From Patescibacteria group bacterium (GTDB lineage Bacteria; Patescibacteriota; Patescibacteriia; UBA9934): a stretch of DNA of 64,000 nt. The first letter of the stretch is position 1. The number at the start of each line of letters is the position of its first letter. The position numbers and the translations under genes were made by a program. Location: the NCBI GenBank assembly GCA_049296775.1, contig JBAQTB010000003.1, positions 270,068 through 334,067 of the forward strand, given 5' to 3'. Below the pieces are notes generated by a model. It had not been told where the DNA came from. It ran no database searches and was given only the letters and a program-made list of their open reading frames with translations. This document shows, one piece after another, positions 16,895 through 59,906 of the stretch.

Positions 16895-17083
16895 GTTACA
16901 CCTTAAGCTAAATGCTAAAAATGGGTGGTCTTGTCCTGAACCATTGCAGGGATTTGAATAGCTATATATAAAATGTTCCACAATAATGAGCTGAGTAGAA
17001 ACAAATCGATAATCTGTCTTCAGCAATGAAGCTAAATTTTTGGCTTGTTCATTACTCTAATATTAATGTAAAGTGTTATTGAT

Positions 17084-20480: not shown

Positions 20481-20507
20481 AAAACCGTCCTGATGGGACG
20501 GTTTTTT
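20481..20507. terminator. Bidirectional rho-independent terminator
   Basis: AAAACCGTCC-TGATG-GGACGGTTTTTT; serves rpmB (+) and the giant gene (-). Confidence 0.6.
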
Positions 20508-33313: not shown

Positions 33314-33388
33314 AGGGGAATAGTGAAATGGCTATCACAAAGGTCTCCAAAACCTTTATTCAGGGTTCGAATCCCTGTTCCCCTGCCA
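33314..33388 (+). tRNA. tRNA-Trp (anticodon CCA)
   Basis: Hand-folded: acceptor AGGGGAA/TTCCCCT, D-stem GTGA/TCAC, anticodon stem AAGGT/ACCTT with loop CTCCAAA, T-arm CAGGG-TTCGAAT-CCCTG, discriminator G, encoded CCA. Confidence 0.85.
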
Positions 33389-33440
33389 GGCAACTGCCGC
33401 GGTGTCTAGATTTTCACCCGACACCGCGGCAACTGCCTGG
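33386..33440 (+). terminator. Perfect 21-bp hairpin starting in the CCA of tRNA-Trp
   Basis: CCAGGCAACTGCCGCGGTGTC-(13 nt loop)-GACACCGCGGCAACTGCCTGG. Confidence 0.55.
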
Positions 33441-33475
33441 CATGCCACCAACCTTTGCGGTAAAATGAGACAGAT

Positions 33476-33775
33476 ATGTTTCCTGTCTCATTTTATGTTT
33501 ACGTCTGCGTAAGTCTAAAAGATAATAGGCTTTATACGGGCTCGACAAATAACCTCGAGAAAAGATTAGCCGAACATGCTAATGGACTGGTCACATCGAC
33601 CAAGCCGCGCTTGCCTTTGAAGCTCATTTATTATGAAACGTACTCGAACGAGACAGATGCAAGAATGAGAGAGAAGTATTTGAAGGGCGGAGGAAGGGCA
33701 AGAAGGAATTTTCGCTTGCAGCTATCTGAGACTTTGAAGGATTTCGATATAGCCAAGGAACGGAACAAAATATGA
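33476..33775 (+). CDS. Stand-alone GIY-YIG nuclease family protein (COG2827-like)
   Basis: YVYVCVSLKDNRLYTGSTNNLEKRLAEH is the canonical small GIY-YIG signature; 99 aa; AT-rich. Confidence 0.75.
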   Translation: MFPVSFYVYVCVSLKDNRLYTGSTNNLEKRLAEHANGLVTSTKPRLPLKLIYYETYSNETDARMREKYLKGGGRARRNFRLQLSETLKDFDIAKERNKI

Positions 33776-34272
33776 AAAAGACATTGATCATTGCAACGTT
33801 GGTGATATTCGCACTATTTGTTATTACTATTTTCTCTCCGCTGTTATACGGAAAGCGAAGTCTTACCGAAAAAGAACTCACAATTTTGCAACCGGTCTAC
33901 GAATCAAGTGTCGATTTCGACAAAGTTAAGATTAAATCCGGCGGACCGCTAACGTTTGTCTACCCGGGCGTCACCATCGGCAACACCGTTTCTTTTCCAA
34001 AAGACGCTTACAATGAGAATGATCAAAAAGATCAAGCACTCCTCGTCCACGAGCTTTGTCATGTTTGGCAATATCAACATTTTGGCCTGGGCTATATTCC
34101 TCGTTCACTTTGGGAGCTCATCACCCAACGTGATACGTACGTCATCCATTATGATGCCAAAAAATCTTTTCGAGAGTACGATATCGAAGAACAATGCGAG
34201 ATCGTAGCTGAGTATTTTCTAACAGAAGATATTCGATACGCTTCGTACATCGAAGAGCTACGAGCACAATAA
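33772..34272 (+). CDS. Membrane-anchored putative zinc metallopeptidase (HExxH)
   Basis: N-terminal TM helix; LLVHELCHVWQYQHFG zincin-like motif; ATGA overlap with the GIY-YIG gene. Confidence 0.5.
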   Translation: MKKTLIIATLVIFALFVITIFSPLLYGKRSLTEKELTILQPVYESSVDFDKVKIKSGGPLTFVYPGVTIGNTVSFPKDAYNENDQKDQALLVHELCHVWQYQHFGLGYIPRSLWELITQRDTYVIHYDAKKSFREYDIEEQCEIVAEYFLTEDIRYASYIEELRAQ

Positions 34273-34380
34273 GGTTCTAATGCAGCTCATCAGCCGCTGC
34301 CAAACTCCGACCAGCATAATTGCTGGCCGGAGTTTGTTTGGAAAAACGAGAATTGAGAAATTTATAATTTATATATAAAA

Positions 34381-34421
34381 AAGGCCCCGCGCCGTCCCAG
34401 TCGTTTGGGATAGCGTGGGGC
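34381..34421 (-). terminator. Terminator hairpin for the 34427 gene
   Basis: GGCCCCGCG...CGTGGGGCC stem followed on the minus strand by a T/A-rich run. Confidence 0.45.
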
Positions 34422-34426
34422 CAAGT

Positions 34427-35308
34427 CTAGTTGTCCAGCGGGTGATTACGCAGGTGTTCGTCGATGAGTACCTGGATCGCCTCTCGATCCTCTGATGGGA
34501 TCTGCTCGAAGTCAGGCGCTTCGGACGCCCGCATGTAGAAGGCGATAGCTTCATCTCTTCTATTGAGCAAATCGAGGCAGCGACCCGTCTGGACGAAATG
34601 GAAAGCCTTCACAGGTTCCATCTCGCAGCTAGTCATGAAATGCCCGACGGCAGCCTCGGCGTTCCGACGGAACCGGATCAGATACGACGCGTAGTCGTGT
34701 TGAGCAATACTACACTCGGGACTCTCACCCAAGAGCCGCTTGTACAGTTCGTCGGCCCGCTCCAGATCGTTACGAAGAGCCGCGATCATGGCAGAGCGAG
34801 AGAGCTCAGTTCGACCGGCGCCTGGATCGAGAGGGGCACCATCGATCATCGCTACCTGCCCTTCGACGTACTCCTGAAGAGTGTTCACGATCTCGTCAAG
34901 ATACCCAGAGGCGATGCGCTGTGCGAAGCACTCTGCGCCCCGTCCGTACACCGTGTAGATCTTCGTCACGGTCTCGATGAGTGCCCGAAGGCTAGCGAGT
35001 CGCGCACCGTGTGGTGGCTTTGGGAGACTGTCTTGTGGACAGTACTCAAATCGCAGTGTGAACACTTGCTCACGAAGAGCTTGGTACACCTTGTCCTCAG
35101 GAATTCCGAACCCGAGTCCACCGCATCCACTACAGACAGGAATACCGTACGAGGTATCCGAATCTACATCCCTGAACATGCCCGTCCCGATATTGAGACA
35201 AGAGTCTCCGCAGCACCATTCGCAACGTACAACTCCGTCGTTTTCAATGTTCTGAGTCAAAACTACCTCCTGCATCATGACGTTAAGCTCGTTTTTTAAA
35301 ACGAACAT
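34427..35308 (-). CDS. Hypothetical protein with N-terminal Cys-rich zinc-ribbon-like region and helical repeat C-terminus
   Basis: CEWCCGDSC...CSGCGG cluster; preferred over antisense ORF 34598..35299 because of the downstream terminator and upstream promoter. Confidence 0.5.
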   Translation of the reverse strand: MFVLKNELNVMMQEVVLTQNIENDGVVRCEWCCGDSCLNIGTGMFRDVDSDTSYGIPVCSGCGGLGFGIPEDKVYQALREQVFTLRFEYCPQDSLPKPPHGARLASLRALIETVTKIYTVYGRGAECFAQRIASGYLDEIVNTLQEYVEGQVAMIDGAPLDPGAGRTELSRSAMIAALRNDLERADELYKRLLGESPECSIAQHDYASYLIRFRRNAEAAVGHFMTSCEMEPVKAFHFVQTGRCLDLLNRRDEAIAFYMRASEAPDFEQIPSEDREAIQVLIDEHLRNHPLDN

Positions 35309-35340: not shown

Positions 35341-35424
35341 TGTTTTGCAGTATCGCTATAATGAGAGTGAAACACGCTTGCATATATCAAGGTTCCAAGT
35401 ACTTCTACCATTCCCTGTCACTAG

Positions 35425-35453
35425 AACATCAGCCAAAACGGCTGGCGTTTTTG
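35425..35453 (+). repeat. Member of conserved hairpin family (AACATCAGCC-AAAAC-GGCTGGCGTTTTT)
   Basis: Shares the GGCTGG(T/C)GTTTT arm with at least seven other intergenic hairpins. Confidence 0.5.
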
Positions 35454-35485
35454 GTTGGTACATGCCTATACTCAAGATAATTTTT

Positions 35486-36118
35486 ATGAAAATAAGAACA
35501 GCCTTCGTAATCACCTTTATTACTGTCATTATTATATACGCAGCCGTTTGGATTCCCTGGCTCGTGCTTCGCGAAACCAGCGACATAACAAGCTCGCTTG
35601 AAGATCTTGAAAAACACGATGTCGCTGTCATCTTCGGCGGCTTACACGAAAGTGGCAAAGATCTTACCGAGACTAACCGGGAACGGCTCTTGGCAGGCGC
35701 GGCTCTGATTAAAGAAGAAAAAGTTACTAGCCTGATTGTTTCAAATACTTCTGAAGCAACTAAGGCTATGAAGACCTTTCTCCTCGAACAAGGGATTTCT
35801 GAAAACCAAATCGAACTCGACACCACCGCCGTAGTCACGGCAGATAGCTGCGTCGCCGAAAGGAATGCTCATCCCGAAGGCAGATCTGTCATTTTTGTTT
35901 CACATGGATATCATCTGCCCCGGATCCTTTATTCATGTCATCGCCTAAGTGTGTCCGGAGTCGGCGTACCGGCAGAAGAAATTGCGACTATCCAACGACA
36001 AGAATTGTCGCAGTTCGATACCCTGCGAATACGTTTTGGAAGGAATCAACGTGAAGCTCTCCTTACTCTATTGAACATTTTGGGCATATACGGTCCAACA
36101 CTGGAAAAAGAGTTCTAA
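35486..36118 (+). CDS. DUF218 (SanA/YdcF-like) membrane-anchored protein
   Basis: N-terminal TM helix; DVAVIFGG...RL..A..L profile of DUF218; start at ATG 35486 because the ORF-track extension contains the hairpin. Confidence 0.55.
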   Translation: MKIRTAFVITFITVIIIYAAVWIPWLVLRETSDITSSLEDLEKHDVAVIFGGLHESGKDLTETNRERLLAGAALIKEEKVTSLIVSNTSEATKAMKTFLLEQGISENQIELDTTAVVTADSCVAERNAHPEGRSVIFVSHGYHLPRILYSCHRLSVSGVGVPAEEIATIQRQELSQFDTLRIRFGRNQREALLTLLNILGIYGPTLEKEF

Positions 36119-36464
36119 CTCCGTCCGCTAGCCCATGCCAAAAATACTTCGCTTATTTTAGCGGAGTATTTTCATAGGACAAACGCGAGTTAGAACTTTT
36201 TGAAATATTACCTAAAAAAGAATGTCCGGGGTGCAAGATAGCAACCCCGGACAACGCGCTCGTTAACAACTTGTTAGACGAGCGGAAACGGCGGTCCCGC
36301 ACAGCGTTCCCATCCGCCCCCTGTCACTACCATAACCTAATAATAATGTCAATATATCATGCGAGCACTTTTCTAAGCGCCTCTACCATGCCCTGCCAAA
36401 AACCCATCAACTGTAGGTTGGCGATTTTCTGATACACTACGATCAATATAATTTTACAAACTTT

Positions 36465-37043
36465 ATGAAGACCTCCGCAACACCCTTCAGATCGGGCGCG
36501 ACTCAATCAGTGCAGAAGATAATAATTTTAATGAGCGCATTTTGCTTAGGATTAATTGTTCCTTTGATAGCCATGTATTTTGGAATGTCCTTGACCCCCT
36601 CGGCGACGGATGCGTTCGTTTCACCAGAAGGCGCCCGTGTAGAGCTCGTCAAGAAAAATAACAAAGATTGGTTTGGTGACGCATATTATTTCTACCAAGA
36701 TTCTGAGAGAGAAAATCAGTTACTCATAGCCCCTTCGTTGACTATGGAAAACCAGGGAGTGACAAATTCTTTCGATTCCGTTTTCTATACCGATGCGATC
36801 TTATCCCCGGATGGTCGCTGGGTGGCACTGCCCGCAACCTGCTGGGAGGAAACGTGTTTACGGATTTATGATGTAAAACGTCAATCACTTCACTGGGCTG
36901 ATCGCGCAGCCATGAACGTATCCTGGTCAACGGATGGCCGTCTGCACGCTGAGGGTGATTGTGCCGCTCCGAAGGTAACCGCATGCGGACCATTTGAATC
37001 AACCTCGGCTAATGAACCTTGGAGGATGCAGTCTGTTAAATAG
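36465..37043 (+). CDS. Hypothetical secreted/membrane-anchored protein
   Basis: 192 aa with N-terminal hydrophobic anchor; no domain recognised. Confidence 0.45.
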   Translation: MKTSATPFRSGATQSVQKIIILMSAFCLGLIVPLIAMYFGMSLTPSATDAFVSPEGARVELVKKNNKDWFGDAYYFYQDSERENQLLIAPSLTMENQGVTNSFDSVFYTDAILSPDGRWVALPATCWEETCLRIYDVKRQSLHWADRAAMNVSWSTDGRLHAEGDCAAPKVTACGPFESTSANEPWRMQSVK

Positions 37044-37090
37044 ATGCTCTAAATAGTCGAGTTCTAACCTCGCTCACTAGCCCCTGCCAG

Positions 37091-37120
37091 AAATCACCAG
37101 CCTTTACGGGCTGGTGTTTT
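37091..37120 (+). terminator. Hairpin family member (AAATCACCAGCC-TTTAC-GGGCTGGTGTTTT)
   Basis: Perfect stem plus T-run after the 36465 gene. Confidence 0.55.
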
Positions 37121-37126
37121 CTGTTA

Positions 37127-37171
37127 TTGACATCCCCTTCCCTGCATGATTAACTTAAGATAATCTTAAGT
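37127..37171 (+). promoter_or_regulatory. Promoter TTGACA-17-TTAACT overlapping a 19-nt perfect palindrome ACTTAAGATAATCTTAAGT (putative TA operator)
   Basis: Palindrome at 37153-37171 sits between the -10 and the antitoxin start codon. Confidence 0.45.
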
Positions 37172-37177
37172 TAATCT

Positions 37178-37399
37178 ATGAAAAATCTGATCACCTTAAA
37201 GGAATTTAGGCAGGACGTGGCGAAATACGCCGAACGAGTAGCTAAAGGCGAGTCCTTAATCATCACCAAACGATCTCGGCCGCTATTTCGAGTCGGCCCG
37301 GTAGAAGAGGAAGGCTGGGAAACACTCATAGATTTCACAAAATTCCGCAAGGGTGGCATCCCGGCGAGCGAGATTCTCAAGATTCTGAAATCAGTTTAG
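37178..37399 (+). CDS. Type II antitoxin, Phd/YefM-like
   Basis: 73 aa; N-terminus LITLKEFRQDVAKYAERVAKGESLIITKRSRP matches the Phd/YefM consensus; 2 nt before the toxin gene. Confidence 0.65.
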   Translation: MKNLITLKEFRQDVAKYAERVAKGESLIITKRSRPLFRVGPVEEEGWETLIDFTKFRKGGIPASEILKILKSV

Positions 37400-37401
37400 G
37401 T

Positions 37402-37650
37402 ATGGTTGATCGCATTCGTAAAATCTTGCGACAATTACTACCCAAAGACTTGAAGCGGTTACAAGAAGTCGTTCAAAAAGTTCACGACAACGATGTGATT
37501 GGTCTCGATGTAAAAAAACTTGAAGGACGAGATGATGTCTATCGTGTCAGAAAGGGAGACTTCAGAATTATCTTTCAACGTGTTCCGGGTAAGGAAAACT
37601 TGATTATCGCTATCGAGCGTCGTTCAGATACAACATACAACGAGCTCTAA
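37402..37650 (+). CDS. Type II toxin, RelE/ParE family
   Basis: 82 aa; VYRVRKGDFRIIFQRVPGKENLIIAIERR matches the RelE/ParE core (YRiRvGdYRiiy...i.HRkd.Y). Confidence 0.7.
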   Translation: MVDRIRKILRQLLPKDLKRLQEVVQKVHDNDVIGLDVKKLEGRDDVYRVRKGDFRIIFQRVPGKENLIIAIERRSDTTYNEL

Positions 37651-37700
37651 CGTCGTTCACTAAGGCCTGCCCCGTCATTCGCAACCGACGTGTCTTGCCA

Positions 37701-37733
37701 CAAACCCATCAGCCCAAACGGCTGGTGTTTTTG
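37701..37733 (+). terminator. Hairpin family member (CAAACCCATCAGCC-CAAAC-GGCTGGTGTTTTTG)
   Basis: Follows the TA operon and precedes the QueC-like gene. Confidence 0.55.
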
Positions 37734-37777
37734 TTTGAGGCGTGATAATTTCGGCGTGCGCAAAAAGGAGGAGTTCA

Positions 37778-38388
37778 TGCCGAACCCTGCGGGTACGTGT
37801 CTCGTGATGTTGTCGGGCGGAGTCGATTCAGCCGTCCTATTATATGAACAACTAGCGTCCGGAGAGAAGCCGGTGGCCATGACTCGCGCCACGAAGGCGC
37901 GTGAGGTAGAGGCAGCGAAGCAAATTGCGGATCTGGCCGGTGTCCCGCACATCATCCTGAATCCTCGAGAGGAGGCCCAAAGGCTATTCGATTCCGCAAT
38001 CTTCGAACGAATGGACCCGAGAGACCATTTAGGACCGGGGGCATTCCCTCATATCTGTTCGTTGGCGGATTCGCTGGCGTTTGCGGCGCTCTTTTCCATC
38101 CCGAAGGTGCTCTGGGGCTGGCGCCGTTCAGAGATGCATCCGCTCGAGCAGCCGGACATTTTCCCTGACTACCTGGCCTACATCAGCCTGCACAGCAGCT
38201 TGCGACAATGCCCCACTATCGAAGCACCGTTTTTCGAGTGGACGAAGAACATGGTATTGGAAACGGGTTCCAAGCTCGGTGTCCCCCTTCACTACACCTT
38301 CAGCTGCATCAAGGACCAATCCGAACCCTGCGGCGACTGCCGCCGCTGTGTGGAACGTGAGGCCGCGTTCCGGGAGGCTGGCTACTAA
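37778..38388 (+). CDS. QueC-like PP-loop ATPase (7-cyano-7-deazaguanine synthase family), orphan
   Basis: PP-loop LVMLSGGVDS; C-terminal zinc motif C-x7-C-x2-C-x2-C (CIKDQSEPCGDCRRC); strong AAGGAGG RBS 8 nt upstream of ATG 37778. Confidence 0.65.
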
Positions 38389-38400
38389 GATCGTCACGAG

Positions 38401-38452
38401 AACCGCTCCTCACGGGGCGGTTCATTTTTTTAAAGCACGGGCTGGTGTTTTT
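38401..38452 (+). terminator. Terminator hairpin AACCGCTCC-TCAC-GGGGCGGTT + T7, followed by a half-copy of the family hairpin (CACGGGCTGGTGTTTTT)
   Basis: Read directly from the sequence. Confidence 0.5.
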
Positions 38453-38458
38453 ACTTCA

Positions 38459-38941
38459 TCAACGCACCGGTTTATTCTTTAAGAAAGCTTTAAACTTAAA
38501 AGTAAAGTAAATAAGTACAATCACTGAAGAAAAAATAAGAACGTACGTACTCACCGTTTTATTGTCCTGAATTAAGTCTTCCTGCACGCTTGCCGTCTGT
38601 TCAGAGAGACTTGGATAGGCTGGATCATATAAAAGGTCGATTTGCTGACCAACGCTATACTGCTCCATCTTTGAATGTGAGAGCATGGTCAATCTGTATG
38701 TATACGTCGTACCATCCACATCGTAATCAGCTGATATCCTCCAACCCCGTCGTACTGGACTGATATTTGTCACTGTCGCGGTGGTTGTCATACCCCTTTC
38801 GAGCAAAACAAGTCCACTCGCCTCTCTTACACCGATACTCTTAAACTCATTCCACATAACAAAAGCCACGATGACGGCAATGAGAGCAAAAATACCTATA
38901 CGAAAAATATCTTGTAGAGATTTTTTGCTTTGCTTAGTCAT
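38459..38941 (-). CDS. DUF3592-like membrane protein
   Basis: Two TM helices flanking a beta-rich domain; start taken at MTKQSKK. Confidence 0.45.
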   Translation of the reverse strand: MTKQSKKSLQDIFRIGIFALIAVIVAFVMWNEFKSIGVREASGLVLLERGMTTTATVTNISPVRRGWRISADYDVDGTTYTYRLTMLSHSKMEQYSVGQQIDLLYDPAYPSLSEQTASVQEDLIQDNKTVSTYVLIFSSVIVLIYFTFKFKAFLKNKPVR

Positions 38942-38975
38942 ATGCACACATGATAGCACTAGGGCTACATCGCCT

Positions 38976-39010
38976 CAAAACACTCAGCCTTTACGAGTCG
39001 AGTGTTTTTG
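38976..39010 (+). repeat. Hairpin family variant (CAAAACACTC-AGCCTTTACGAG-TCGAGTGTTTTTG)
   Basis: Shares the AGCCTTTACG loop with the 37091 copy. Confidence 0.45.
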
Positions 39011-39040
39011 TTTAATGAAAAATAACAGCTCCCCTGAATT

Positions 39041-39331
39041 TCAGAGGAGCTTGAGAACGATATGCGCGATGCGATCATCACCGATAGTAATATCGCCGAA
39101 GACATCGAACCAGGCGGTAAGGCCAAGTTCGTTTTGAGATGAAGGATCGGTGCCAGGCATGAAGTTGTTGGGACTAGCTGGGCCCGAGATCTCAAACGAG
39201 CACAGCTCTACCTCCGGCAACTGACGATTAATATAACACCGCCAATGCATCGGGTCACCGAGCGTTTTAATACGCCTCACATTCCCGGCGATACGAATCC
39301 AAGTCGACATAGCTTTCACGTCTACCTCCAT
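39041..39331 (-). CDS. Hypothetical small protein
   Basis: ORF track 39041..39418; internal start MEVDVKAMSTWIR preferred to avoid overlap with the divergent gene. Confidence 0.35.
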   Translation of the reverse strand: MEVDVKAMSTWIRIAGNVRRIKTLGDPMHWRCYINRQLPEVELCSFEISGPASPNNFMPGTDPSSQNELGLTAWFDVFGDITIGDDRIAHIVLKLL

Positions 39332-39442
39332 AGGTAGCAGACCGTAACATATATTGAAAGAGCTGCCAAATAGATGATAAGATGATCCTAAAGTGACGTG
39401 AGAAACTCCTCTCAACACTCATATATATTCAAAAACTCATCT

Positions 39443-40408
39443 ATGCCGGAGATTAAAGAAGATAAGCGCTCAACACCTCAAGAGACACTCACTCAAGAAG
39501 GCCTGAGTGACGTAAGAGAACTCCCCCAGCAAAAATCGGATGTTTGGTTATTTGAGGCCGTGAAGGATGGTCAACCTGTGTTCGTCAAAGGATCGGTAGA
39601 AGTCAGTAATGGCGTTGACCGCATTGAGAATCAAGTCTTAGCGCAAAAACTATTACATACTGAGCTCTTAGAGCAAGCTCTCAAAGTGCCTGATGCTGAG
39701 CTTGTGCGCAGTAACGGACTATCTTTAGCAATCATGGAACGTGTTGAGGGGTCGCTACTTGGTGAATCGCGGCCTGATGGTCTCAAGGAGAAAATGTCCG
39801 AAGCTGAGCTTGAAACACTTGTGGATTGGCTAGTAGCGGCGCGCCGCATTCCAGCCGAGAAGCTACCTGAACAATTCCGTGAGATCGCAGACAAGGTTTG
39901 GAATCAAGATTTTTATAGCCAACGCCTGGAGCAGAATGCTAAAGAGCCACTGGCGCTTGGTCTACTCACTGACCAAGAGCTGCAAACACTCCAGCAATTG
40001 TGGGCCGAAAATTACGGGCTACTTACCTTCCAACACCACGACATCGTACCCTTCAACCTAATGCGTGATCAGGAGCAAAAACTGTGGTTACTCGACGGCG
40101 AATTCGCCCGTCTAGGCATGGCCGGCTATGACTCTGCGTACTTTGCACTCCAGTCATACGGTTTATATGGTGACGGTGAGAGTGCAGCGATAATGCTTGA
40201 GAAAAGCTTATCTGCTTGGGAGAAAAACTTCCCAGAAGACCAGTTGGAATCGGCGATTCTAGCTCCGTTAGCCTACCGGATCGTGGCCAGTCTCAACGAT
40301 GCCCCAACCAAGAATAATCAAGCTGTCCGTGAACGCACCATCTTTTTAAAAGACTTAATCCTGAGCGGAGATGTCAGAAAGTTAATTGCCGGTCTGCGTA
40401 GCACATAA
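39443..40408 (+). CDS. Aminoglycoside/choline-kinase-like phosphotransferase (APH fold)
   Basis: Catalytic loop HHDIVPFNLM and LLDGEFARLG (DxE metal site) are typical of the APH/ChoK protein-kinase-like family. Confidence 0.55.
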   Translation: MPEIKEDKRSTPQETLTQEGLSDVRELPQQKSDVWLFEAVKDGQPVFVKGSVEVSNGVDRIENQVLAQKLLHTELLEQALKVPDAELVRSNGLSLAIMERVEGSLLGESRPDGLKEKMSEAELETLVDWLVAARRIPAEKLPEQFREIADKVWNQDFYSQRLEQNAKEPLALGLLTDQELQTLQQLWAENYGLLTFQHHDIVPFNLMRDQEQKLWLLDGEFARLGMAGYDSAYFALQSYGLYGDGESAAIMLEKSLSAWEKNFPEDQLESAILAPLAYRIVASLNDAPTKNNQAVRERTIFLKDLILSGDVRKLIAGLRST

Positions 40409-40462
40409 ATGTACGAGCCATGAGTGAATTCATCGTGTACCGTCCGGCCTAGTACACAACCA

Positions 40463-40495
40463 CAAAACCATCAGCCCAAACGGCTGGTGGTTTTG
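40463..40495 (+). terminator. Hairpin family member (CAAAACCATCAGCC-CAAAC-GGCTGGTGGTTTTG)
   Basis: Nearly identical to the 37701 copy. Confidence 0.55.
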
Positions 40496-40538
40496 TTTTC
40501 ATGATACAATCTTTGCAATAAATCATCTAAGTTACCCC

Positions 40539-41078
40539 ATGAAAAAATTCGAAACTCCTACAGTCATAGGACTCGTAACAGTAAGCGTGGTCCTAGGAGC
40601 GATATTCGGTCTCGGTATCGCGCCACTGTTAAAAGACATGAACGTCGCATCTACACAGGATGCTGACATGCTAACAGCTGGTACCAAGCTGAACGATGAC
40701 TACCTTGCAAAAACTTACGGCTTTAACATTAATACTCCAGACAATTACTCTCTGTTTACCACTGCCGAACCGAATACGATTTGGGTTGGAATGAGCAGCA
40801 CTCCCGATACGAGTAAGGGTTTTTACGTCCGCCCCGTCGACGATCGAGAGGATCGTATTGCAGCCATCAAAGAAGACGCAACCAAAATTATCCAAGAACG
40901 ACAATCATTCGCCGTCGGTAATGTGAATGGCCATAAACTTACCGTACAAACGGATGATGGCCAACAAATCACCCACTTCATGGTTACAGGAGAAGCAGAA
41001 ATTGAAGTCGCCGACGCCAATACAACGGCTTACACCGCCATTGTGGATACATTTTTCGCAGCCGAAATCATGAACTAA
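40539..41078 (+). CDS. Hypothetical membrane-anchored protein
   Basis: 179 aa; N-terminal TM helix; no domain recognised. Confidence 0.45.
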   Translation: MKKFETPTVIGLVTVSVVLGAIFGLGIAPLLKDMNVASTQDADMLTAGTKLNDDYLAKTYGFNINTPDNYSLFTTAEPNTIWVGMSSTPDTSKGFYVRPVDDREDRIAAIKEDATKIIQERQSFAVGNVNGHKLTVQTDDGQQITHFMVTGEAEIEVADANTTAYTAIVDTFFAAEIMN

Positions 41079-41107
41079 CGGCCGATCTCCGTACAAATCA
41101 TGTTCGT

Positions 41108-41139
41108 AAAAACACCAACCGTAATGGCTGGTGTTTTTT
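41108..41139 (+). terminator. Hairpin family member (AAAAACACCAACC-GTAAT-GGCTGGTGTTTTTT)
   Basis: Read directly from the sequence. Confidence 0.55.
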
Positions 41140-41167
41140 GTATGGTCGAGGAGAAGTAGAGTGTGAT

Positions 41168-41248
41168 TTAGAACAGTTGGATGAGAACCCAGATCACGAG
41201 TACGAGGCCGAGGGGCACGCCTAAAAGCCAGAGGAGAAGATATTTCAT
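41168..41248 (-). CDS. Candidate 26-aa hydrophobic micro-peptide (MKYLLLWLLGVPLGLVLVIWVLIQLF)
   Basis: Uninterrupted ATG..TAA ORF 19 nt downstream of the 41267 gene on the same strand; below the ORF-track length cutoff. Confidence 0.25.
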   Translation of the reverse strand: MKYLLLWLLGVPLGLVLVIWVLIQLF

Positions 41249-41266
41249 AATGGTGGAATTAAACTT

Positions 41267-41617
41267 TTATTTAAGTCCGGCAACCACGGTCTTCCACTGA
41301 TCCTCTAGGTCTTGCTTGAGACCAGATAATTCGTCCTTGGAAACATCTTTCATGTTCTCATAACGTTTTAGCACGGCGCTGATAATGCCGGTGTAAGCTT
41401 CACGTGTCACATGCGGAATCTTCTGCAGTTCGTCCATGACGTCTGCCTTGGCACGCAGAATCCAAGCTTGCGCGGTCTGGGCTGCACTCTTCTTCTTGGA
41501 ACGGCTCATGAGATACAGGCCACCAATGGTAGCTGCCAGTGCTCCGGCTGCCACCAATCCCTTGGCGCCTCCTTCCATGGTTGCGGGCGGAGCGTTCTTT
41601 TTGACAAGTTTAGTCAT
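41267..41617 (-). CDS. YtxH-like small amphipathic membrane-associated protein
   Basis: Gly/Ala-rich N-terminal helix GAKGLVAAGALAATIGGLYLMSRSKKK followed by a charged coiled-coil region. Confidence 0.4.
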   Translation of the reverse strand: MTKLVKKNAPPATMEGGAKGLVAAGALAATIGGLYLMSRSKKKSAAQTAQAWILRAKADVMDELQKIPHVTREAYTGIISAVLKRYENMKDVSKDELSGLKQDLEDQWKTVVAGLK

Positions 41618-41690
41618 AGAAGAAAAGTGAAGAGTTATTCATTGACAATAGCACCCTCAGCTCAAAGCACAAGTGCCAGTGATAAGAACT

Positions 41691-41724
41691 GGATTTTAGA
41701 ATATAGACTTTAGTTGAAAGTATC
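41691..41724. repeat. Tandem heptamers GGATTTT AGAATAT AGACTTT AGTTGAA AGTATCA in the divergent intergenic region
   Basis: Shares AGACTTTAG with the repeats at 26481 and 50405. Confidence 0.45.
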
Positions 41725-41727
41725 ATC

Positions 41728-42018
41728 GTGCTGTATCATGGCAGATACATGAAAATCAACAATTCCCTCCTCCTGCCCTTTAGTCTGACCGGTGGCTTGA
41801 TCCTGATGGTCGTGATGAGCAACTTCGGGACTAAATGTCACCTAGTTGAACCAGGCGGAATCAATGAAGGCGGCACAGGCTTTCCATTCCACTACCATAC
41901 CTGCGGCGTTTGGGGCGAAGCTTTTAACTGGCTCATCGTCGCCATTGATTTCGCTATACTCTCCCTCGCCGTTTATCTGGTGTTGAAACTCATCCAACGA
42001 TTGACCCAAAAACACTAG
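41728..42018 (+). CDS. Hypothetical small membrane protein
   Basis: Two hydrophobic helices; start could alternatively be MKINN at 41749. Confidence 0.4.
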   Translation: MLYHGRYMKINNSLLLPFSLTGGLILMVVMSNFGTKCHLVEPGGINEGGTGFPFHYHTCGVWGEAFNWLIVAIDFAILSLAVYLVLKLIQRLTQKH

Positions 42019-42038
42019 CCAACACGGCTAGTGTTTTT
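42008..42038 (+). terminator. Hairpin family variant (AAAAACACTAGCC-AACAC-GGCTAGTGTTTTT)
   Basis: Read directly from the sequence. Confidence 0.5.
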
Positions 42039-42165
42039 ACATATATCGATGCACTCAACAAGAGAATCGACTGCGCTAAGCATCTGGCTAAGGTCAGCGT
42101 GATATTAGTGGTATGCTGTAGTCAATTAATTCATACGGTGCCGCCGAGCACGTAGATCCTCTAAC

Positions 42166-44016
42166 ATGAAAAGATATACTCAAGCATTAGGAGGCCTCGT
42201 GGCCTTGGTTTTAATCTTTGGATCCCTGCAGCCCATGACAGCATCGGCGGCAACGACGGTTGATCTGGGCACAGCCGAAACTTTTGCAGTTTTGGCAGGT
42301 ACGGCAATTTCAGATACGGCTCCTTCTGTCATTACAGGGGACGTGGGTTTAAGTCCTGCCGCTGGTACTAACATCACCGGACTAACTTCAGGAGAAGTCT
42401 CCGGCACCATTTACGCAGTTGACGCTAATGGACCCGACGGCGCTTCTGGTAATGAGCCGGCATTCGTGAATGGCGCTAAAACCGATTTAGTCGCTGCCTA
42501 TTCTAGTGCTAGTCAAGTCACAACCGGAGTCATCGCCGCCGATCTTGGTGGGCAAACCCTGACGGCCGGCGTTTACGATGATAACGATGCACCTAACTCA
42601 CTTTCTATTGATGCCGGTGAAACGCTCACGCTCGACGCAGAAGGTGACGCTGATGCAGTCTTCATTTTCAAGACAGGGTCAACCCTGACAACAGGTGCCG
42701 GGAGTACAGTCTCACTGATCAATGGCGCCAGCGCCTGCAACGTCTTCTGGCAAATCGGGAGTTCCGCAACTCTAGGGACGGGCACTACTTTCGCCGGTAA
42801 TATCTTAGCTCTTACTTCGATTACTGATGATGGTGGTGCGACCGTTAATGGTCGCTTGTTGGCCCGTAACGGTGCAGTGACCCTGAATGACACTACCGTC
42901 ACCGTACCAGACTGTGCCGACCCTGAACCACCAGCTTCTGGCCCATCTTTCACAGGCAGTATCAACGTCGTTAAAATCGTCATCAATGACAACGGCGGCA
43001 CCGCCACTATCGACGACTTCCCACTCTTTGTGAACGGTACAGCGGTAGTCTCAGGTCGACCAGGTAATTTCACCGCCGGGACCTACACCATTACCGAAAC
43101 TAGCAATGCCAACTACACCCAGAGTTTCTCGGGAAGCTGTGATGCTGCCGGTAGATTAACTCTAAGTGCTTTCGAAACCACAGCCTGTATTGTTACCAAT
43201 GACGATATCGGTACGCCAGCTGTCATACCGCCAGCACCCCCTATCATCACGGTCGTCAAAGTACCTAGTCCACTTAGCTTGCCAGATGGTCCAGGCCCAG
43301 TCACATACACCTTCACTTTAAACAATATTGGAACTGTAGCCGTTACCAATGTCACCATGATTGATGACACTTGCAGCCCTGCTGCCTTAATCTCTGGCGA
43401 TACCAATGGGGACGCGGCGCTCGATATTAGTGAAACTTGGACCTACAGCTGTTCTGCCCTACTCTCGGAAACTCACACGAATACAGTCGTCGCGACTGGC
43501 TGGGCCAACGGCCTCAGTACCACCGATATCGCCTTTGCGACCGTGGTCGTAGGTGAACCGATCATTCCACCCTTCATTCACGTCACCAAAGTCCCAGATC
43601 CATTGACACTACTCGCTGGTGGTGGCTTAGTCACTTACACAGAAACCATCACCAACCCAGGTGAAGTCGCCCTAGAGAACGTCACTTTAACTGACGATAA
43701 ATGTTCACCGGTAAACTACATTTCCGGCGACACCAACGGTGATAACAGACTTGATCCGAACGAAGCCTGGGTACACACGTGTCAGGACACACTTACCGTA
43801 ACCACCACGAATATCGCTACCGCCACTGGTGAAGCTAACGGCCTAACGGCTACGGATTTTGCAGTGGTCACAGTCTTAGTCGCCGAATCTCTGCCAAGCC
43901 TGCCAAACGCCGGCATTGCCCCTCTGAATCGCAACCTAGCCCTACCAATCATTGCAGCTAACCTTGGTGTCATCACTGTACTTGGTTATTTGACCCTGAA
44001 AAAACTCTCTGTCTAA
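42166..44016 (+). CDS. Secreted ice-binding-like (DUF3494) protein with DUF11-type repeats and C-terminal LPNAG sorting signal
   Basis: Signal peptide; DLGTAETFAVLAGTAISDT..ITGDVGLSPAAG is the DUF3494/IBP signature; two ~100-aa DUF11-like repeats; C-terminal LPNAG + hydrophobic stretch + KK tail. Confidence 0.7.
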   Translation: MKRYTQALGGLVALVLIFGSLQPMTASAATTVDLGTAETFAVLAGTAISDTAPSVITGDVGLSPAAGTNITGLTSGEVSGTIYAVDANGPDGASGNEPAFVNGAKTDLVAAYSSASQVTTGVIAADLGGQTLTAGVYDDNDAPNSLSIDAGETLTLDAEGDADAVFIFKTGSTLTTGAGSTVSLINGASACNVFWQIGSSATLGTGTTFAGNILALTSITDDGGATVNGRLLARNGAVTLNDTTVTVPDCADPEPPASGPSFTGSINVVKIVINDNGGTATIDDFPLFVNGTAVVSGRPGNFTAGTYTITETSNANYTQSFSGSCDAAGRLTLSAFETTACIVTNDDIGTPAVIPPAPPIITVVKVPSPLSLPDGPGPVTYTFTLNNIGTVAVTNVTMIDDTCSPAALISGDTNGDAALDISETWTYSCSALLSETHTNTVVATGWANGLSTTDIAFATVVVGEPIIPPFIHVTKVPDPLTLLAGGGLVTYTETITNPGEVALENVTLTDDKCSPVNYISGDTNGDNRLDPNEAWVHTCQDTLTVTTTNIATATGEANGLTATDFAVVTVLVAESLPSLPNAGIAPLNRNLALPIIAANLGVITVLGYLTLKKLSV

Positions 44017-44194
44017 GTCAGTTCACTATACAACCGTAAGAAGACGTATCGTCGGCATTTTTGCAGTCTCGACTAGTCTTCTTGGTGTATTCGCCTTCCT
44101 TGGTTGGCACAACCTCTCAGCTTACGAGCCATCAGTCATTCCCGTCGCAGTTGCCATAGCCGAGCCCGAGATCGAACCTGCCATAGCCGTTCAT

Positions 44195-44671
44195 GTGATC
44201 GTCACTCCCCCACCCGTCAAAATTAGCGACCCTGTCAGACTTAAAATTCCCAGTCTCAAAATTGACGCTGCTGTTGAACAGGTGACCGTTACCGCCGCCG
44301 GGGCCATGGCCGTCCCCACCGATCCTATGATCACGGGTTGGTATCAACACGGACCTCGTCCCGGCGAATCAGGTAGTGCCACCATCTCTGGACACGTCAA
44401 TTGGTGGTCAGGAGTTGAAGGTATTTTTATCGATCTCCATAAACTAAAAATCGGCGAAACTATCGTAGTCCAAGATGATCAAGGACAAGACGTTACTTTT
44501 GCGGTAAGAGACATTCAAAAGTTAGACTCAAACGCCGACACTACGGCCGTTTTTACCTCAGACGATGACCGAGCCCATCTCAACCTCATCACCTGCTCCG
44601 GCGCCTGGGATTCTGCAGCTAGGCAATATACCCAACGCCTAGTGGTCTTTACGGATAAGGTTGGCGAGTAG
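44195..44671 (+). CDS. Sortase (class E/F-like) adjacent to its LPNAG substrate
   Basis: Catalytic His (ISGHVNWW), TLITC motif (LNLITCSG) and Arg (RLVVF); GTG start at 44195; upstream in-frame TM anchor lacks a canonical start codon. Confidence 0.7.
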   Translation: MIVTPPPVKISDPVRLKIPSLKIDAAVEQVTVTAAGAMAVPTDPMITGWYQHGPRPGESGSATISGHVNWWSGVEGIFIDLHKLKIGETIVVQDDQGQDVTFAVRDIQKLDSNADTTAVFTSDDDRAHLNLITCSGAWDSAARQYTQRLVVFTDKVGE

Positions 44672-49888: not shown

Positions 49889-49913
49889 AATTTCTTGTAC
49901 CCTAGCAGTATAT

Positions 49914-50387
49914 ATGACGATTGATATCATCTTCACCATCCTCCTCTGCCTAGGCCTACTCCTCACCTTCATCCCGACCTTGCCCGGAGTGCCCATGATG
50001 TTCGGTACACTGTTTATTTACGGCTTAATCGATAAATTCCAGACACTTGAAGCTTGGCATCTCGCCGTCTTTGGTGGCCTAGCACTTCTGTCCATTCTCA
50101 TCGACTACTCCTCTGGATTGATTGGTGCCAAACTTGGCGGTGCCAATAAAAAGTCTTTGCTCTTCGGTATCATCGGACTCTTTGTAGGCTTAATTGTCTT
50201 CCCACCGTTTGGAGCGTTTATCGGTCTATTCTTGGGCGTCTTCGTAGCCGAACTCGTGCAATTCAAAGATAAACACAAAGCCTTAAAAGCGGCCTCCTAC
50301 TCACTCGCCGCCACCGTCACGGGCGCCGCCGCCAATATCCTCATCGCCATCGCCTGCTTGGTAGGTTTTTTGATCATCATCATTTAG
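49914..50387 (+). CDS. DUF456 family membrane protein
   Basis: Four TM helices; glycine-zipper-rich DUF456 pattern. Confidence 0.55.
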   Translation: MTIDIIFTILLCLGLLLTFIPTLPGVPMMFGTLFIYGLIDKFQTLEAWHLAVFGGLALLSILIDYSSGLIGAKLGGANKKSLLFGIIGLFVGLIVFPPFGAFIGLFLGVFVAELVQFKDKHKALKAASYSLAATVTGAAANILIAIACLVGFLIIII

Positions 50388-52142: not shown

Positions 52143-52174
52143 AAAAACACCAGTCTACCCAGGCTGGTGTTTTT
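52143..52174 (+). terminator. Hairpin family member (AAAAACACCAGTCT-ACCC-AGGCTGGTGTTTTT)
   Basis: Read directly from the sequence. Confidence 0.55.
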
Positions 52175-52388
52175 GCTTACTTTATGGTAGGCTGGTTCTT
52201 TATGACTAGTCGCCAAATCATCATCTTAGGCAGTCTCATTGGCTCCACGTTAACCGTGCTCTTTTTGATGGCGTATATTTTGATTTGGATTGCTAGAGGC
52301 TAAACAACTGAGCACAGGCCACTCTTCACTAATTGCCACAGCTACGTTAAAATAGACAAGTTGTAAGTCAATTAAGCCTGAAATTGTT

Positions 52389-59849: not shown

Positions 59850-59906
59850 CTCACCTGATCAATCAGGAAAAAGAGCGGGGTTTTGGATTAAACTCGTGAC
59901 TTAAGC

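What the first reader, a model, noticed from the sequence alone, without database searches (positions are those of the whole stretch)
35345..42100. Cassette-like accessory region: ~11 short, unrelated genes each bounded by members of one conserved hairpin family
- **Layout.** Between 35.3 and 42.1 kb almost every gene is short (70-320 aa) and functionally unrelated to its neighbours.
- **Gene content.** SanA-like, a secreted hypothetical, a Phd/RelE TA pair, an orphan QueC-like gene, DUF3592, a hypothetical, an APH-like kinase, a membrane hypothetical, a YtxH-like gene plus a micro-peptide, and another membrane hypothetical.
- **Separators.** The genes are separated by hairpins that share primary sequence, AAA(A)CACCAGCC-N4-6-GGCTGGTGTTTT(T). 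Copies are at 35425, 37091, 37701, 38436 (half), 38976 (variant), 40463, 41108, 42008 and again at 52143.
- **Contrast.** Terminators elsewhere in the window have unrelated sequences.
- **Inference.** Sequence-conserved hairpins punctuating a string of promiscuous small genes resemble a cassette array (integron-like or another site-specific system) or a species-specific uptake/recombination signal doubling as a terminator. A TA pair at the array start also fits an integron-like array.
Basis: partly seen in the sequence, partly recalled or inferred. Interest (0 to 1): 0.6.

Follow-up and report, generated by a model that had tools for sequence, protein, structure and literature searches.

The report
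tRNA-Trp-anchored array of gene cassettes
Next to the tryptophan tRNA gene of an uncultured Patescibacteria bacterium lies a string of about eleven small unrelated genes, most of them closed by a terminator hairpin from one family and about half also by a look-alike of the tRNA's 3' end; it behaves like an integron-style gene-capture site but has no integrase of its own.

Summary
The 12-mer GGCTGGTGTTTT (up to 1 mismatch) occurs 12 times against 0.42 expected, forming 8 hairpins in 35.4-42.0 kb plus one at 52.1 kb. Other terminators in the window are unrelated.

The hairpin is only half of the repeat. Six or seven copies are preceded by a ~30-nt module, RGTTCTAAC-N6-CACTAG-CCCCTGCCA, whose end equals the 3' end of tRNA-Trp. 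The array actually starts at tRNA-Trp (33314-33388).

- **Other contigs:** The same module plus a hairpin separates single unrelated genes in 14 metagenome contigs. In 8 of these a tRNA-Trp (complete in 7, cut at the contig end in one) lies 0.7-1.5 kb upstream.
- **Strain variation:** Near-identical strains differ by one whole cassette beside the tRNA. Two contigs with the same tRNA-Trp 3' part differ by a 144-nt insert bounded by CCCCTGCCA repeats.
- **Relatives:** They keep the flanking genes but carry different genes inside.
- **Recombinase:** None was found in any array.

Best reading: a tRNA-anchored cassette array built by serial site-specific insertion through a recombinase acting in trans, with the hairpins serving as terminators. 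It is not a canonical integron and not an uptake sequence. I rate it a new variant of known kinds (integron arrays; tRNA-anchored islands).

The parts
33314..33388 (+). tRNA-Trp (CCA anticodon). It anchors the array, and its 3' end ...TTCCCCTGCCA is the prototype of the repeated core.
   Evidence: ARAGORN and Rfam. tRNA-Trp sits at the same synteny break in relatives L123, L126 and L127.
33389..33460 (+). GC-rich palindromic mini-insert directly after the CCA. It is followed by a degenerate core (CATGCCA) and a decayed left half of a family hairpin (CCACCAACC TTTGC GG).
   Evidence: Sequence. A comparable insert exists in L134, 144 nt long and bounded by direct CCCCTGCCA repeats relative to L132.
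33476..34272 (+). Cassette 1: small GIY-YIG nuclease (33476-33775) plus an eCIS_core/DUF4157 protein (33772-34272).
   Evidence: Pfam.
34273..34339 (+). Unit 1. Module variant GGTTCTAATGCAGCTCATCAGCCGCTGCCA plus hairpin CTCCGACCAGC-ATAATT-GCTGGCCGGAG.
   Evidence: blastn gives 87-88% identity to the hairpins after tRNA-Trp in L126 and after the module in L127.
34427..35308 (-). Cassette 2: 293-aa TPR-like gene in reverse orientation, with its own minus-strand terminator at 34383-34422.
35391..35456 (+). Unit 2 (A). Degenerate module (..TTCCAAG..CTACCATTCCCTGTCACTAG) plus hairpin CATCAGCC-AAAAC-GGCTGGCG-TTTTT.
   Evidence: (72% identity to 36371-36409).
35486..36118 (+). Cassette 3: DUF218/SanA-like gene. 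Its stop codon TAA lies inside the module (GAG TTC TAA C).
   Evidence: Pfam and NCBIfam.
36111..36197 (+). Unit 3 (B). Module AGTTCTAACTCCGTCCGCTAGCCCATGCCA, a hairpin with a different stem, and an inverted module ending GTTAGAAC. Together they form an 85-nt imperfect palindrome.
   Evidence: nhmmer E=7e-8. DNA fold -19 to -21 kcal/mol, z about -5.5.
36369..36429 (+). Unit 4 (B2). Degenerate module (..CTACCATGCCCTGCCA) plus a decayed hairpin. The 172 nt between B and B2 hold no credible gene (an empty cassette).
36465..37043 (+). Cassette 5: 192-aa protein with an N-terminal hydrophobic segment and no family match.
37060..37125 (+). Unit 5 (C). Best-preserved module AGTTCTAACCTCGCTCACTAGCCCCTGCCA plus hairpin GAAATCACCAGCC-TTTACG-GGCTGGTGTTTTC.
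   Evidence: nhmmer E=4.5e-9. 86% identical over 65 nt to the unit in L140.
37178..37650 (+). Cassette 6: Phd-like antitoxin plus ParE/RelE-like toxin. A palindromic operator lies at about 37150-37175.
   Evidence: sequence.
37643..37736 (+). Unit 6 (D). Module AGCTCTAACGTCGTTCACTAAGGCCTGCC, split by a 29-nt insert, plus hairpin CCATCAGCC-CAAAC-GGCTGGTG-TTTTTGTTT.
   Evidence: nhmmer E=0.003. 95% identical to 40460-40498. 93-95% identical to two hairpins in L128.
37777..38452 (+). Cassette 7: orphan QueC-like gene with its own terminator (38400-38431), followed by the right arm only of a family hairpin (E, 38437-38452).
   Evidence: A comparable half-hairpin scar is seen in the cassette-less allele L134.
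38459..39013 (-). Cassette 8: DUF3592 membrane gene (reverse orientation). Unit F lies on the + strand at 38957-39013 (CACTAG ... a degenerate hairpin).
39041..40499 (.). Cassette 9: hypothetical gene (39041-39418, minus strand) and APH-like kinase (39443-40408, plus strand). They are closed by unit G: module remnant CCGTCCGGCCTAG.. (40440-40462) plus hairpin 40463-40499.
40539..41141 (+). Cassette 10: 179-aa hypothetical gene whose stop lies in AACTAAC. Unit H hairpin at 41108-41141 pairs best on the minus strand (G-U wobble).
41168..42038 (.). Cassette 11: 26-aa hydrophobic micro-ORF plus YtxH/DUF6110-like gene (minus strand), and a 96-aa membrane ORF (plus strand). It is closed by hairpin I (42008-42038), which has no module.
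   Evidence: The YtxH gene recurs in the L140 array (77% identity) and in L142 (74%) with different neighbours.
52143..52176 (+). Isolated family hairpin (J) after a Big_5 surface-protein gene. It has no module and is the only copy in the 57 kb outside the array.

Best explanation
The region is the larger part of a cassette array anchored on tRNA-Trp, spanning about 33.3-42.04 kb.

**Anatomy.** In the tRNA-proximal half (34.3-37.7 kb) and at 40.44 kb, each cassette (one gene, sometimes two) ends in a composite unit of about 65 nt. The unit has two parts:
- a ~30-nt module that mimics the T-loop-to-CCA end of tRNA-Trp (core CCCCTGCCA);
- an A-tract, a GC-rich hairpin and a T-tract.

The other distal separators keep only the hairpin.

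**Proposed mechanism.** The module and core are the attachment site left by serial site-specific insertion at the 3' end of tRNA-Trp. The recombinase is encoded elsewhere in the genome, as an integron integrase is encoded outside the cassettes it moves. The hairpin is the terminator that normally follows the tRNA. It travels with each cassette and insulates neighbouring cassettes transcriptionally, and each cassette has its own promoter. Units far from the tRNA have decayed to bare hairpins or half hairpins.

**Shown:** the anatomy, the tRNA anchoring, homologous arrays in other contigs, strain-level gain or loss of cassettes, and terminator-like hairpin features.

**Inferred:** site-specific recombination at the core, a recombinase acting in trans, and entry of new cassettes at the tRNA-proximal end.
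For: - **Homologous units.** The composite units share sequence beyond the hairpin stems.
- **tRNA terminator as prototype.** In relatives L126 and L127 the family hairpin follows the CCA of tRNA-Trp directly. In L127 one APH gene sits between that hairpin and a module followed by the hairpin that L126 has at its tRNA.
- **Spread in metagenomes.** A module-only pattern found 14 metagenome contigs. In 8 of them a tRNA-Trp lies 0.7-1.5 kb upstream on the same strand, with one unrelated gene (two ORFs in L131) between. The chance expectation is roughly 0.002 per contig.
- **Arrays elsewhere.** Arrays of 3-5 units occur in L128, L138, L140 and L141.
- **Hairpin after the module.** 18 of 21 distinct modules are followed within 0-7 nt by a hairpin of at least 8 bp, and the stems have many unrelated sequences.
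- **Strain polymorphism.** L134 and L131 are identical in their flanks but differ by a cassette of about 715 nt beside the tRNA. Further alleles exist.
- **Precise insertion.** L134 has a 144-nt insert bounded by direct CCCCTGCCA repeats relative to L132.
- **True tRNA fragment.** L133 holds a genuine 3' fragment of tRNA-Trp without the rest of the gene.
- **Relatives.** They keep Band_7-DUF1003 on one side, and PspC or NrdDG on the other, with different genes between.
- **Shared unit, different genes.** The unit is 93-95% identical between the window and L128, although the flanking genes share no similarity.
- **RNA-level pairing.** CATCAGCC/GGCTGGTG pairs through G-U only on the transcribed strand, which fits a terminator role.
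Against: - No recombinase domain was found in the Pfam scans of the array, flanking and unassigned window ORFs, nor in the array ORFs tested or read on about 15 related contigs. The remaining window ORFs were judged only by reading their translations. The only hit elsewhere is a truncated serine recombinase beside tRNA-Trp in L123.
- The module is not an exact copy of the resident tRNA end. It is about 5 nt longer.
- The strain alleles show mosaic SNP patterns, as homologous recombination would produce.
- Breakpoints in L131 versus L134 do not fall cleanly on the core.
- The distal half of the window array (38.4-42 kb) has hairpins but no clear modules.
- Relative L142 has the same variable locus with larger genes, only one module and no tRNA-Trp nearby.
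- Only 64 kb of the genome could be examined.
Confidence: 0.5

Rival explanations
1. No dedicated recombinase is involved. The tRNA-Trp locus is a hotspot where DNA taken up from relatives is swapped in by homologous recombination. The repeated module-plus-hairpin units and the conserved flanks serve as portable homology, and the hairpins are plain terminators.
For: - Allele L146 is a mosaic of the L134 and L147 SNP patterns inside the unit.
- The L131/L134 difference is a replacement with 100% identical flanks.
- No recombinase was found.
Against: - It does not explain why arrays start at tRNA-Trp in at least 8 independent lineages.
- It does not explain why separators mimic the tRNA 3' end, the 144-nt insert bounded by 9-bp core repeats, or the true tRNA 3' fragment in L133.
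- It cannot create the first module next to a new gene.
Confidence: 0.2
2. The unit is a small non-autonomous mobile element (MITE- or REP-like) that carries a terminator and has piled up locally. The genes between copies are ordinary resident genes.
For: - Site B has inverted module copies flanking the hairpin, resembling terminal inverted repeats.
- An isolated hairpin lies at 52143.
- Family hairpins occur singly in relatives L142 and L145.
Against: - All module copies share one orientation relative to the tRNA.
- No target-site duplications are visible.
- Modules are absent from the other 57 kb of the window.
- The gene content between copies, not only the copies, differs between relatives and strains.
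Confidence: 0.08
3. It is a canonical integron cassette array lacking its integrase (a CALIN), and the hairpin units are attC sites.
For: - Short unrelated genes and a toxin-antitoxin pair.
- Homogeneous separators within one array, as with the Vibrio cholerae repeats (VCRs).
- Module start GTTCTAAC and inverted GTTAGAAC resemble R'' (RYYYAAC) and R' (GTTRRRY).
- Site B is an 85-nt imperfect palindrome with bulges.
Against: - Only 1 of about 11 sites has the second arm. The others fold only into the short terminator.
- The module has about 26-30 nt with no partner, so the site is asymmetric.
- G-U wobbles favour the top strand, not the bottom.
- Five of the roughly 15 genes, in three cassettes, are reversed.
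- The anchor is a tRNA gene, not attI next to intI.
- No intI was found in the window.
Confidence: 0.07
4. The hairpins are independent intrinsic terminators that resemble each other by convergence or local gene conversion, and the region is just a gene-poor accessory patch.
For: All copies have terminator anatomy and sit at gene ends.
Against: - 95% identity over 39 nt includes loops and flanks.
- The shared 30-nt module lies upstream of the stems.
- The same units occur in unrelated contigs.
Confidence: 0.04
5. The 12-mer is a DNA uptake sequence (DUS/USS-like), placed as inverted pairs in terminators.
For: Inverted pairs forming terminators are typical of the Neisseria DUS and the Haemophilus USS (general knowledge).
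Against: - Only one copy in the 57 kb outside the array, and none inside genes.
- Stem sequences differ completely between arrays of related lineages, while the module is conserved.
Confidence: 0.02

Closest known systems
Integron cassette arrays, including sedentary chromosomal integrons and CALINs
   Same: - A one-sided array of short, mostly single-gene, functionally unrelated cassettes.
- Toxin-antitoxin cassettes are present.
- Each cassette ends in a structured recombination-site-like repeat that is homogeneous within an array.
- Stop codons often lie inside the repeat.
- The enzyme is not carried by the cassettes.
- Cassette content turns over between strains.
   Different: - The anchor is the 3' end of tRNA-Trp, not attI beside intI.
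- The repeat is a pseudo-tRNA end plus an intrinsic terminator, not a symmetric R''-L''/L'-R' attC.
- Cassettes appear to carry their own promoters.
- Five of the roughly 15 genes are reversed.
- No integron integrase was seen.
tRNA-anchored genomic islands built by serial integration, such as Islander-type islands and Prochlorococcus tycheposon islands (10.1101/2020.12.28.424599; PMC4383910)
   Same: - An intact tRNA gene at one end.
- Partial-tRNA-like repeats in direct orientation through the island.
- Newer elements are thought to push older ones inward.
- Variable content at a conserved locus.
   Different: - Units here are 0.3-1.5 kb and none of about 40 units seen carries an integrase, whereas tycheposons carry integration and replication modules.
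- The repeat is a conserved 30-nt look-alike, about 5 nt longer than the true tRNA end, fused to a terminator. It is not a plain displaced tRNA fragment.
pdif (XerC/XerD) modules of Acinetobacter plasmids (general knowledge)
   Same: - Small one- or two-gene modules, often toxin-antitoxin pairs, separated by short palindromic sites.
- They are moved by a host recombinase acting in trans.
- The hairpin geometry of 11-5/6-11 resembles dif.
   Different: - Hairpin sequences differ completely between related arrays, which is unlike a recombinase-binding site.
- Sites are in direct, not alternating, orientation.
- The arrays are anchored on a tRNA gene.
Rho-independent terminators
   Same: A GC-rich stem of 8-14 bp, a loop of 4-6 nt, a T-run, often an upstream A-run (bidirectional), and a position at gene ends.
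   Different: Ordinary terminators do not share loops and flanks at 95% identity. They are also not preceded by a conserved pseudo-tRNA module.

Membership tests
Integron / CALIN | An integron integrase gene (a tyrosine recombinase with the IntI insertion) next to the array. | tested here: not met
   No Phage_integrase or other recombinase domain was found in the ORFs flanking the array or in the window ORFs scanned with Pfam. The remaining window ORFs were judged only by reading their translations. A CALIN by definition lacks the integrase, so this alone does not exclude a CALIN.
Integron / CALIN | attC sites: imperfect palindromes of 57-141 nt with R'' RYYYAAC / R' GTTRRRY, L''/L' boxes and extrahelical bases. 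| tested here: not met
   Only 36111-36197 folds as an 85-nt bulged palindrome with GTTCTAAC/GTTAGAAC. The other sites fold only into the short terminator stem. The module has no partner arm.
Integron / CALIN | A score above threshold with the IntegronFinder attC covariance model. | not testable with these tools
   The model is not available here. Rfam has no attC family, and the Rfam scans returned only tRNA.
Integron / CALIN | Cassettes that are co-oriented and mostly promoterless. | tested here: not met
   Five of the roughly 15 genes, in three cassettes, lie on the minus strand. Promoter-like -10/-35 elements and a toxin-antitoxin operator follow several hairpins.
tRNA-anchored island made by site-specific integration | An intact tRNA gene at one boundary. 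| tested here: met
   tRNA-Trp at 33314-33388. The same anchor is found in L126, L127, L129, L130, L131/L134 and L136.
tRNA-anchored island made by site-specific integration | Direct repeats of the tRNA 3' end inside or at the far end of the island. | tested here: met
   CCCCTGCCA occurs only at 33380 and 37081 in 64 kb, both on the + strand. CCCTGCCA also occurs at 36391. These lie within 30-nt modules. A genuine tRNA 3' fragment is present in L133. The repeats are look-alikes rather than exact copies.
tRNA-anchored island made by site-specific integration | An integrase encoded in the island. | tested here: not met
   No integrase was found in the window's array or in the array ORFs tested or read on related contigs. 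L123 has only a truncated large serine recombinase beside tRNA-Trp.
tRNA-anchored island made by site-specific integration | Presence or absence of units between close strains at the att site. | tested here: met
   L134 versus L131/L146/L147, and L132 versus L134. No close strain of the window's own organism was available.
DNA uptake sequence (DUS/USS) | High genome-wide density, including inside genes, on both strands. | tested here: not met
   One hairpin in the 57 kb outside the array and none in coding sequence. Only 64 kb of the genome was available.
REP / MITE | Dispersed intergenic copies in both orientations, with terminal inverted repeats or target duplications. | tested here: inconclusive
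   Modules occur only in the array and in one orientation. One site has inverted modules.
Intrinsic terminator | A GC-rich stem-loop followed by a T-run downstream of a gene, pairing on the transcribed strand. | tested here: met
   G-U wobbles in A, D and G pair on the + strand, and in H on the - strand.

The most novel reading that the evidence does not exclude
Patescibacteria possess a previously undescribed gene-capture system analogous to the integron.
- The 3' end of tRNA-Trp, together with its terminator, plays the role of attI.
- A conserved 30-nt pseudo-tRNA module fused to a terminator plays the role of attC.
- A recombinase encoded elsewhere, not yet identified, inserts, excises and shuffles single-gene cassettes.

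Such a system would give these tiny genomes a dedicated, transcriptionally insulated site for accessory genes.
Probability: 0.35. Interest if true: 0.85.

Novelty: new variant of a known kind. Interest (0 to 1): 0.62.

Why it matters
Patescibacteria (CPR bacteria) have genomes of about 1 Mb and few recognised mobile elements, so how they acquire and exchange accessory genes is poorly understood.

A tRNA-Trp-anchored array of single-gene cassettes would be a simple, testable route for gene flux in this large uncultured radiation. Its separator sequence is shared by contigs with clearly different tRNA-Trp genes, from several metagenome projects.

It would also be a second, independent solution to the problem that integrons solve, namely capturing promoter-equipped or terminator-insulated genes at one safe site.

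The conserved module gives a concrete probe. It can be used to mine cassettes from metagenomes and to search for the recombinase.

Tried and rejected
- **Genome-contig scan.** I searched CAGCC-N4-6-GGCTGGTGTTTTT. The pattern was too unspecific. None of those loci showed a cluster.
- **Viral contigs.** The module pattern gave 0 hits, so there is no sign of a phage origin.
- **Rfam.** Gathering and E-value scans found only tRNAs. The units match no known RNA family.
- **attC-like pairing.** I searched for GTTCTAAC...GTTAGAAC pairs and folded eight sites. Only site B qualifies.
- **Recombinase search.** Pfam on array ORFs in the window and in L123, L126, L128-L131, L136, L138, L140 and L141 found none. 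An HTH protein upstream of tRNA-Trp in L136 and L123 has no catalytic domain match.
- **APH orthology.** The APH genes next to tRNA-Trp in L127 and in the window are unrelated.
- **tRNA-Gln.** I looked for partial tRNA-Gln repeats after tRNA-Gln at 16764 and found none.
- **Defence content.** PADLOC matched only the QueC-like gene.
- **Module conservation.** Modules appear more conserved than tRNA ends, but the search pattern biases this, so I give it little weight.
- **Literature.** Searches for integrons or tRNA-linked cassettes in Patescibacteria found no description of this arrangement.

Full report

Yes. GGCTGGTGTTTT with up to one mismatch occurs 12 times in the window. Dinucleotide shuffles give 0.42 on average and never more than 2.

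- Eight hairpins lie in 35.4-42.04 kb and one at 52.14 kb.
- Terminator-like hairpins elsewhere in the window have unrelated stems (20482, 26434, 27791, 31812, 32470, 53674, 55049).
- The similarity reflects common descent. 37698-37736 and 40460-40498 are 95% identical over 39 nt, including loop and flanks.
- The gene content is as described: DUF218/SanA-like, Phd, ParE/RelE, QueC-like, DUF3592, APH-like and DUF6110/YtxH-like genes, plus several ORFs without a family.

**2.

Alignment of the intergenic regions shows that the hairpin is the 3' half of a longer unit. Upstream lies a ~30-nt module, RGTTCTAAC-N6-CACTAG-CCCCTGCCA, followed by an A-rich linker.

- Clear modules are at 36111 and 37060.
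- Weaker or degenerate modules are at 34273, 35391, 36369 and 37643, with a remnant at 40440.
- In three cassettes the stop codon lies inside the module's (T/C/A)CTAAC (36116, 37648, 41076).
- The last 9-11 nt of the module equal the 3' end of tRNA-Trp, including the CCA. A tRNA-Trp gene sits at 33314-33388 on the same strand, 0.9 kb upstream of the first unit.
- CCCCTGCCA occurs only twice in 64 kb: at the tRNA end and in the module at 37081.

The array therefore runs from the tRNA to about 42.04 kb and holds about 11 cassettes.

**3. The organism and its relatives**

The window is from a Patescibacteria MAG. Its DUF1003 protein is 100% identical to an NCBI entry on a 383-kb contig. The same sequence also assembled in SRR28012402.

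The closest relatives found share only 56-64% identity in DUF1003 (74-77% in the YtxH-like protein), so no close strain of this organism was available.

- **L123, L126 and L127.** The genes left of DUF1003 (Band_7, GpsA, HtrA, HU) are syntenic with the window. Synteny ends at DUF1003 and tRNA-Trp, beyond which the genes differ.
- **L142.** Its YtxH-like protein is 74% identical to the window's. The same locus (Band_7-DUF1003 ... VKOR-NrdG-NrdD) holds about 12 kb of entirely different genes apart from the YtxH homologue.
- **L140.** Its YtxH gene is 77% identical in DNA, and one unit is 86% identical to unit C over 65 nt. Yet it carries Fic, TrmB-like and other genes between them.

**4. Where the unit comes from**

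In L126 and L127 the family hairpin follows the CCA of tRNA-Trp directly. In L127 a single APH gene lies between that hairpin and a module. The module is then followed by the very hairpin that sits at the tRNA in L126. The unit thus equals a pseudo 3' end of tRNA-Trp plus the tRNA's terminator.

A scan of JGI metagenomes with a module-only pattern, which real tRNAs cannot match, found 14 contigs.

- In 8 of them a tRNA-Trp (complete in 7, cut at the contig end in one) lies 0.7-1.5 kb upstream on the same strand.
- One unrelated gene lies between the tRNA and the module: a membrane protein, a PP2C-like phosphatase or an ORF of unknown function (L131 has two ORFs).

A profile of the module then revealed arrays of 3-5 units in L128, L138, L140 and L141. 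Their cargo includes NUDIX, a GNAT acetyltransferase, HicAB/HigA-like proteins, a methyltransferase and many proteins of unknown function.

Eighteen of 21 distinct modules are followed within 0-7 nt by a hairpin of at least 8 bp. The stems fall into many unrelated sequence types. Structure is therefore conserved between lineages, while the stem sequence is homogeneous only within an array. L128 carries two hairpins 93-95% identical to unit D of the window, although its genes share no similarity with the window.

**5. Evidence for turnover**

The contigs of one Rifle-type Parcubacteria lineage are 100% identical in their flanks, yet they differ next to tRNA-Trp.

- L134 lacks a cassette of about 715-790 nt (a 114-aa gene plus a degenerate module) that L131, L146 and L147 carry.
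- Further alleles differ by 36-nt and 72-nt segments.
- The cassette-less allele ends in a half hairpin, like unit E of the window.
- L134 has a 144-nt GC-rich insert exactly at the tRNA's CCA relative to L132. The insert is bounded by direct CCCCTGCCA repeats. The window has a comparable mini-insert at 33389-33447.
- L133 contains a genuine 3' fragment of tRNA-Trp without the rest of the gene.

These are the hallmarks of site-specific traffic at a tRNA attachment site. The alleles also show mosaic SNP patterns, so homologous recombination acts here as well.

**6. What the hairpins do**

They have full intrinsic-terminator anatomy. In A, D and G the arms CATCAGCC/GGCTGGTG pair through G-U only on the + strand. 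In H the wobble works only on the - strand, which matches the minus-strand YtxH operon it closes. This points to selection at the RNA level, that is, transcription termination.

Each hairpin is followed by promoter-like elements for the next gene.

**7. Is it an integron?**

No integrase or other recombinase domain was found in the window ORFs scanned with Pfam, the rest being judged by reading their translations. None was found in the array ORFs tested or read on the related contigs either. L123 has only a truncated serine recombinase beside tRNA-Trp.

Only unit B (36111-36197) has an inverted second module (GTTCTAAC...GTTAGAAC). It folds into an 85-nt bulged palindrome with z about -5.5. The other sites fold only into the terminator.

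Five of the roughly 15 genes are reversed, and the anchor is a tRNA gene. Membership in the integron family is therefore not supported, although the logic is integron-like. An uptake-sequence role is not supported either, because there is one copy in the 57 kb outside the array and none inside genes.

**8. Closest known systems and novelty**

The arrangement combines features of two known kinds:
- tRNA-anchored islands that contain partial tRNAs left by serial integration (tycheposon islands, 10.1101/2020.12.28.424599; Islander, PMC4383910);
- integron cassette arrays.

It differs from the first in having single-gene units that lack an integrase. It differs from both in its separator, a conserved pseudo-tRNA module fused to a terminator. 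Literature searches found no description of this in Patescibacteria.

I rate it a new variant of a known kind.

**9. Limits**

- Only 64 kb of the genome could be read, and my one genome-collection scan was wasted on an unspecific pattern.
- No close strain of this organism was available.
- The recombinase and the exact crossover point remain inferred.
- The conservation of the module is partly an effect of how the contigs were found. Even so, positions the pattern left free (the GT before TCTAAC, and the N-T-C-N-T-Y spacer) are also conserved.

Noticed in passing
window 48881-49996 (-): A bacterial type IB topoisomerase (Top1B_N_bact + Topoisom_I) lies 7 kb downstream of the array. This fold is shared with tyrosine recombinases. 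There is no evidence that it acts on the array.
   Followed up: partly
window 16764-18054: tRNA-Gln is followed by two family-less ORFs in the lowest-GC stretch of the window (0.41). The independent Logan assembly breaks exactly at this tRNA. No partial tRNA-Gln repeat was found downstream.
   Followed up: partly
window 36197-36368: The 172-nt 'empty cassette' between units B and B2 contains two further palindromes: GTCCGGGGTGCAAGATAGCAACCCCGGAC and CGCTCGTTAACAACTTGTTAGACGAGCG. The second has AAC/GTT boxes. Their function is unknown.
   Followed up: no
window 33389-33447; L134 2496-2639: GC-rich mini-inserts lie directly after the CCA of tRNA-Trp. They contain head-to-head copies of the core (TGCC-A-GGCA; CCTGCCTGCCGGCAGGCAGG). 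These could be recombination footprints or protein-binding sites.
   Followed up: partly
L136 1720-2382; L123 9243-9875: A 210-220-aa protein with an N-terminal HTH (HTH_23/HTH_38) and an unassigned C-terminal part is encoded immediately upstream of tRNA-Trp. It is co-directional with the tRNA in two distant relatives (44% identity) and absent from the window.
   Followed up: partly
L123 8234-9256: A truncated large serine recombinase (Recombinase + Zn_ribbon_recom domains, no catalytic domain) abuts the 3' end of tRNA-Trp. This points to another type of element using the same site.
   Followed up: partly
window 41168-41248 (-): A 26-aa strongly hydrophobic micro-ORF (MKYLLLWLLGVPLGLVLVIWVLIQLF) lies downstream of the YtxH-like gene and upstream of hairpin H.
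   Followed up: no
window 37777-38388: An orphan QueC-like gene with no other queuosine genes nearby. It scores far below the QueC equivalog cut-off (64 vs 150 bits) and shows a faint QatC-like signal, so it could be a defence or modification gene.
   Followed up: partly
window 20506-26448, 42166-44671, 59235-63854: Very large repetitive surface proteins (1980 and 1315 aa) and an ice-binding-like/DUF7507 protein. Each of the latter two lies next to a sortase gene. This is a typical Patescibacteria cell-surface repertoire.
   Followed up: no
L152-L155 (contigs of about 1.1 kb): In many samples the polymorphic 114-aa cassette assembles as a separate contig of about 1.1 kb. One end lies in the GC-rich insert after tRNA-Trp and the other in the 5' end of the next gene. 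This fits strain heterogeneity around the cassette.
   Followed up: partly
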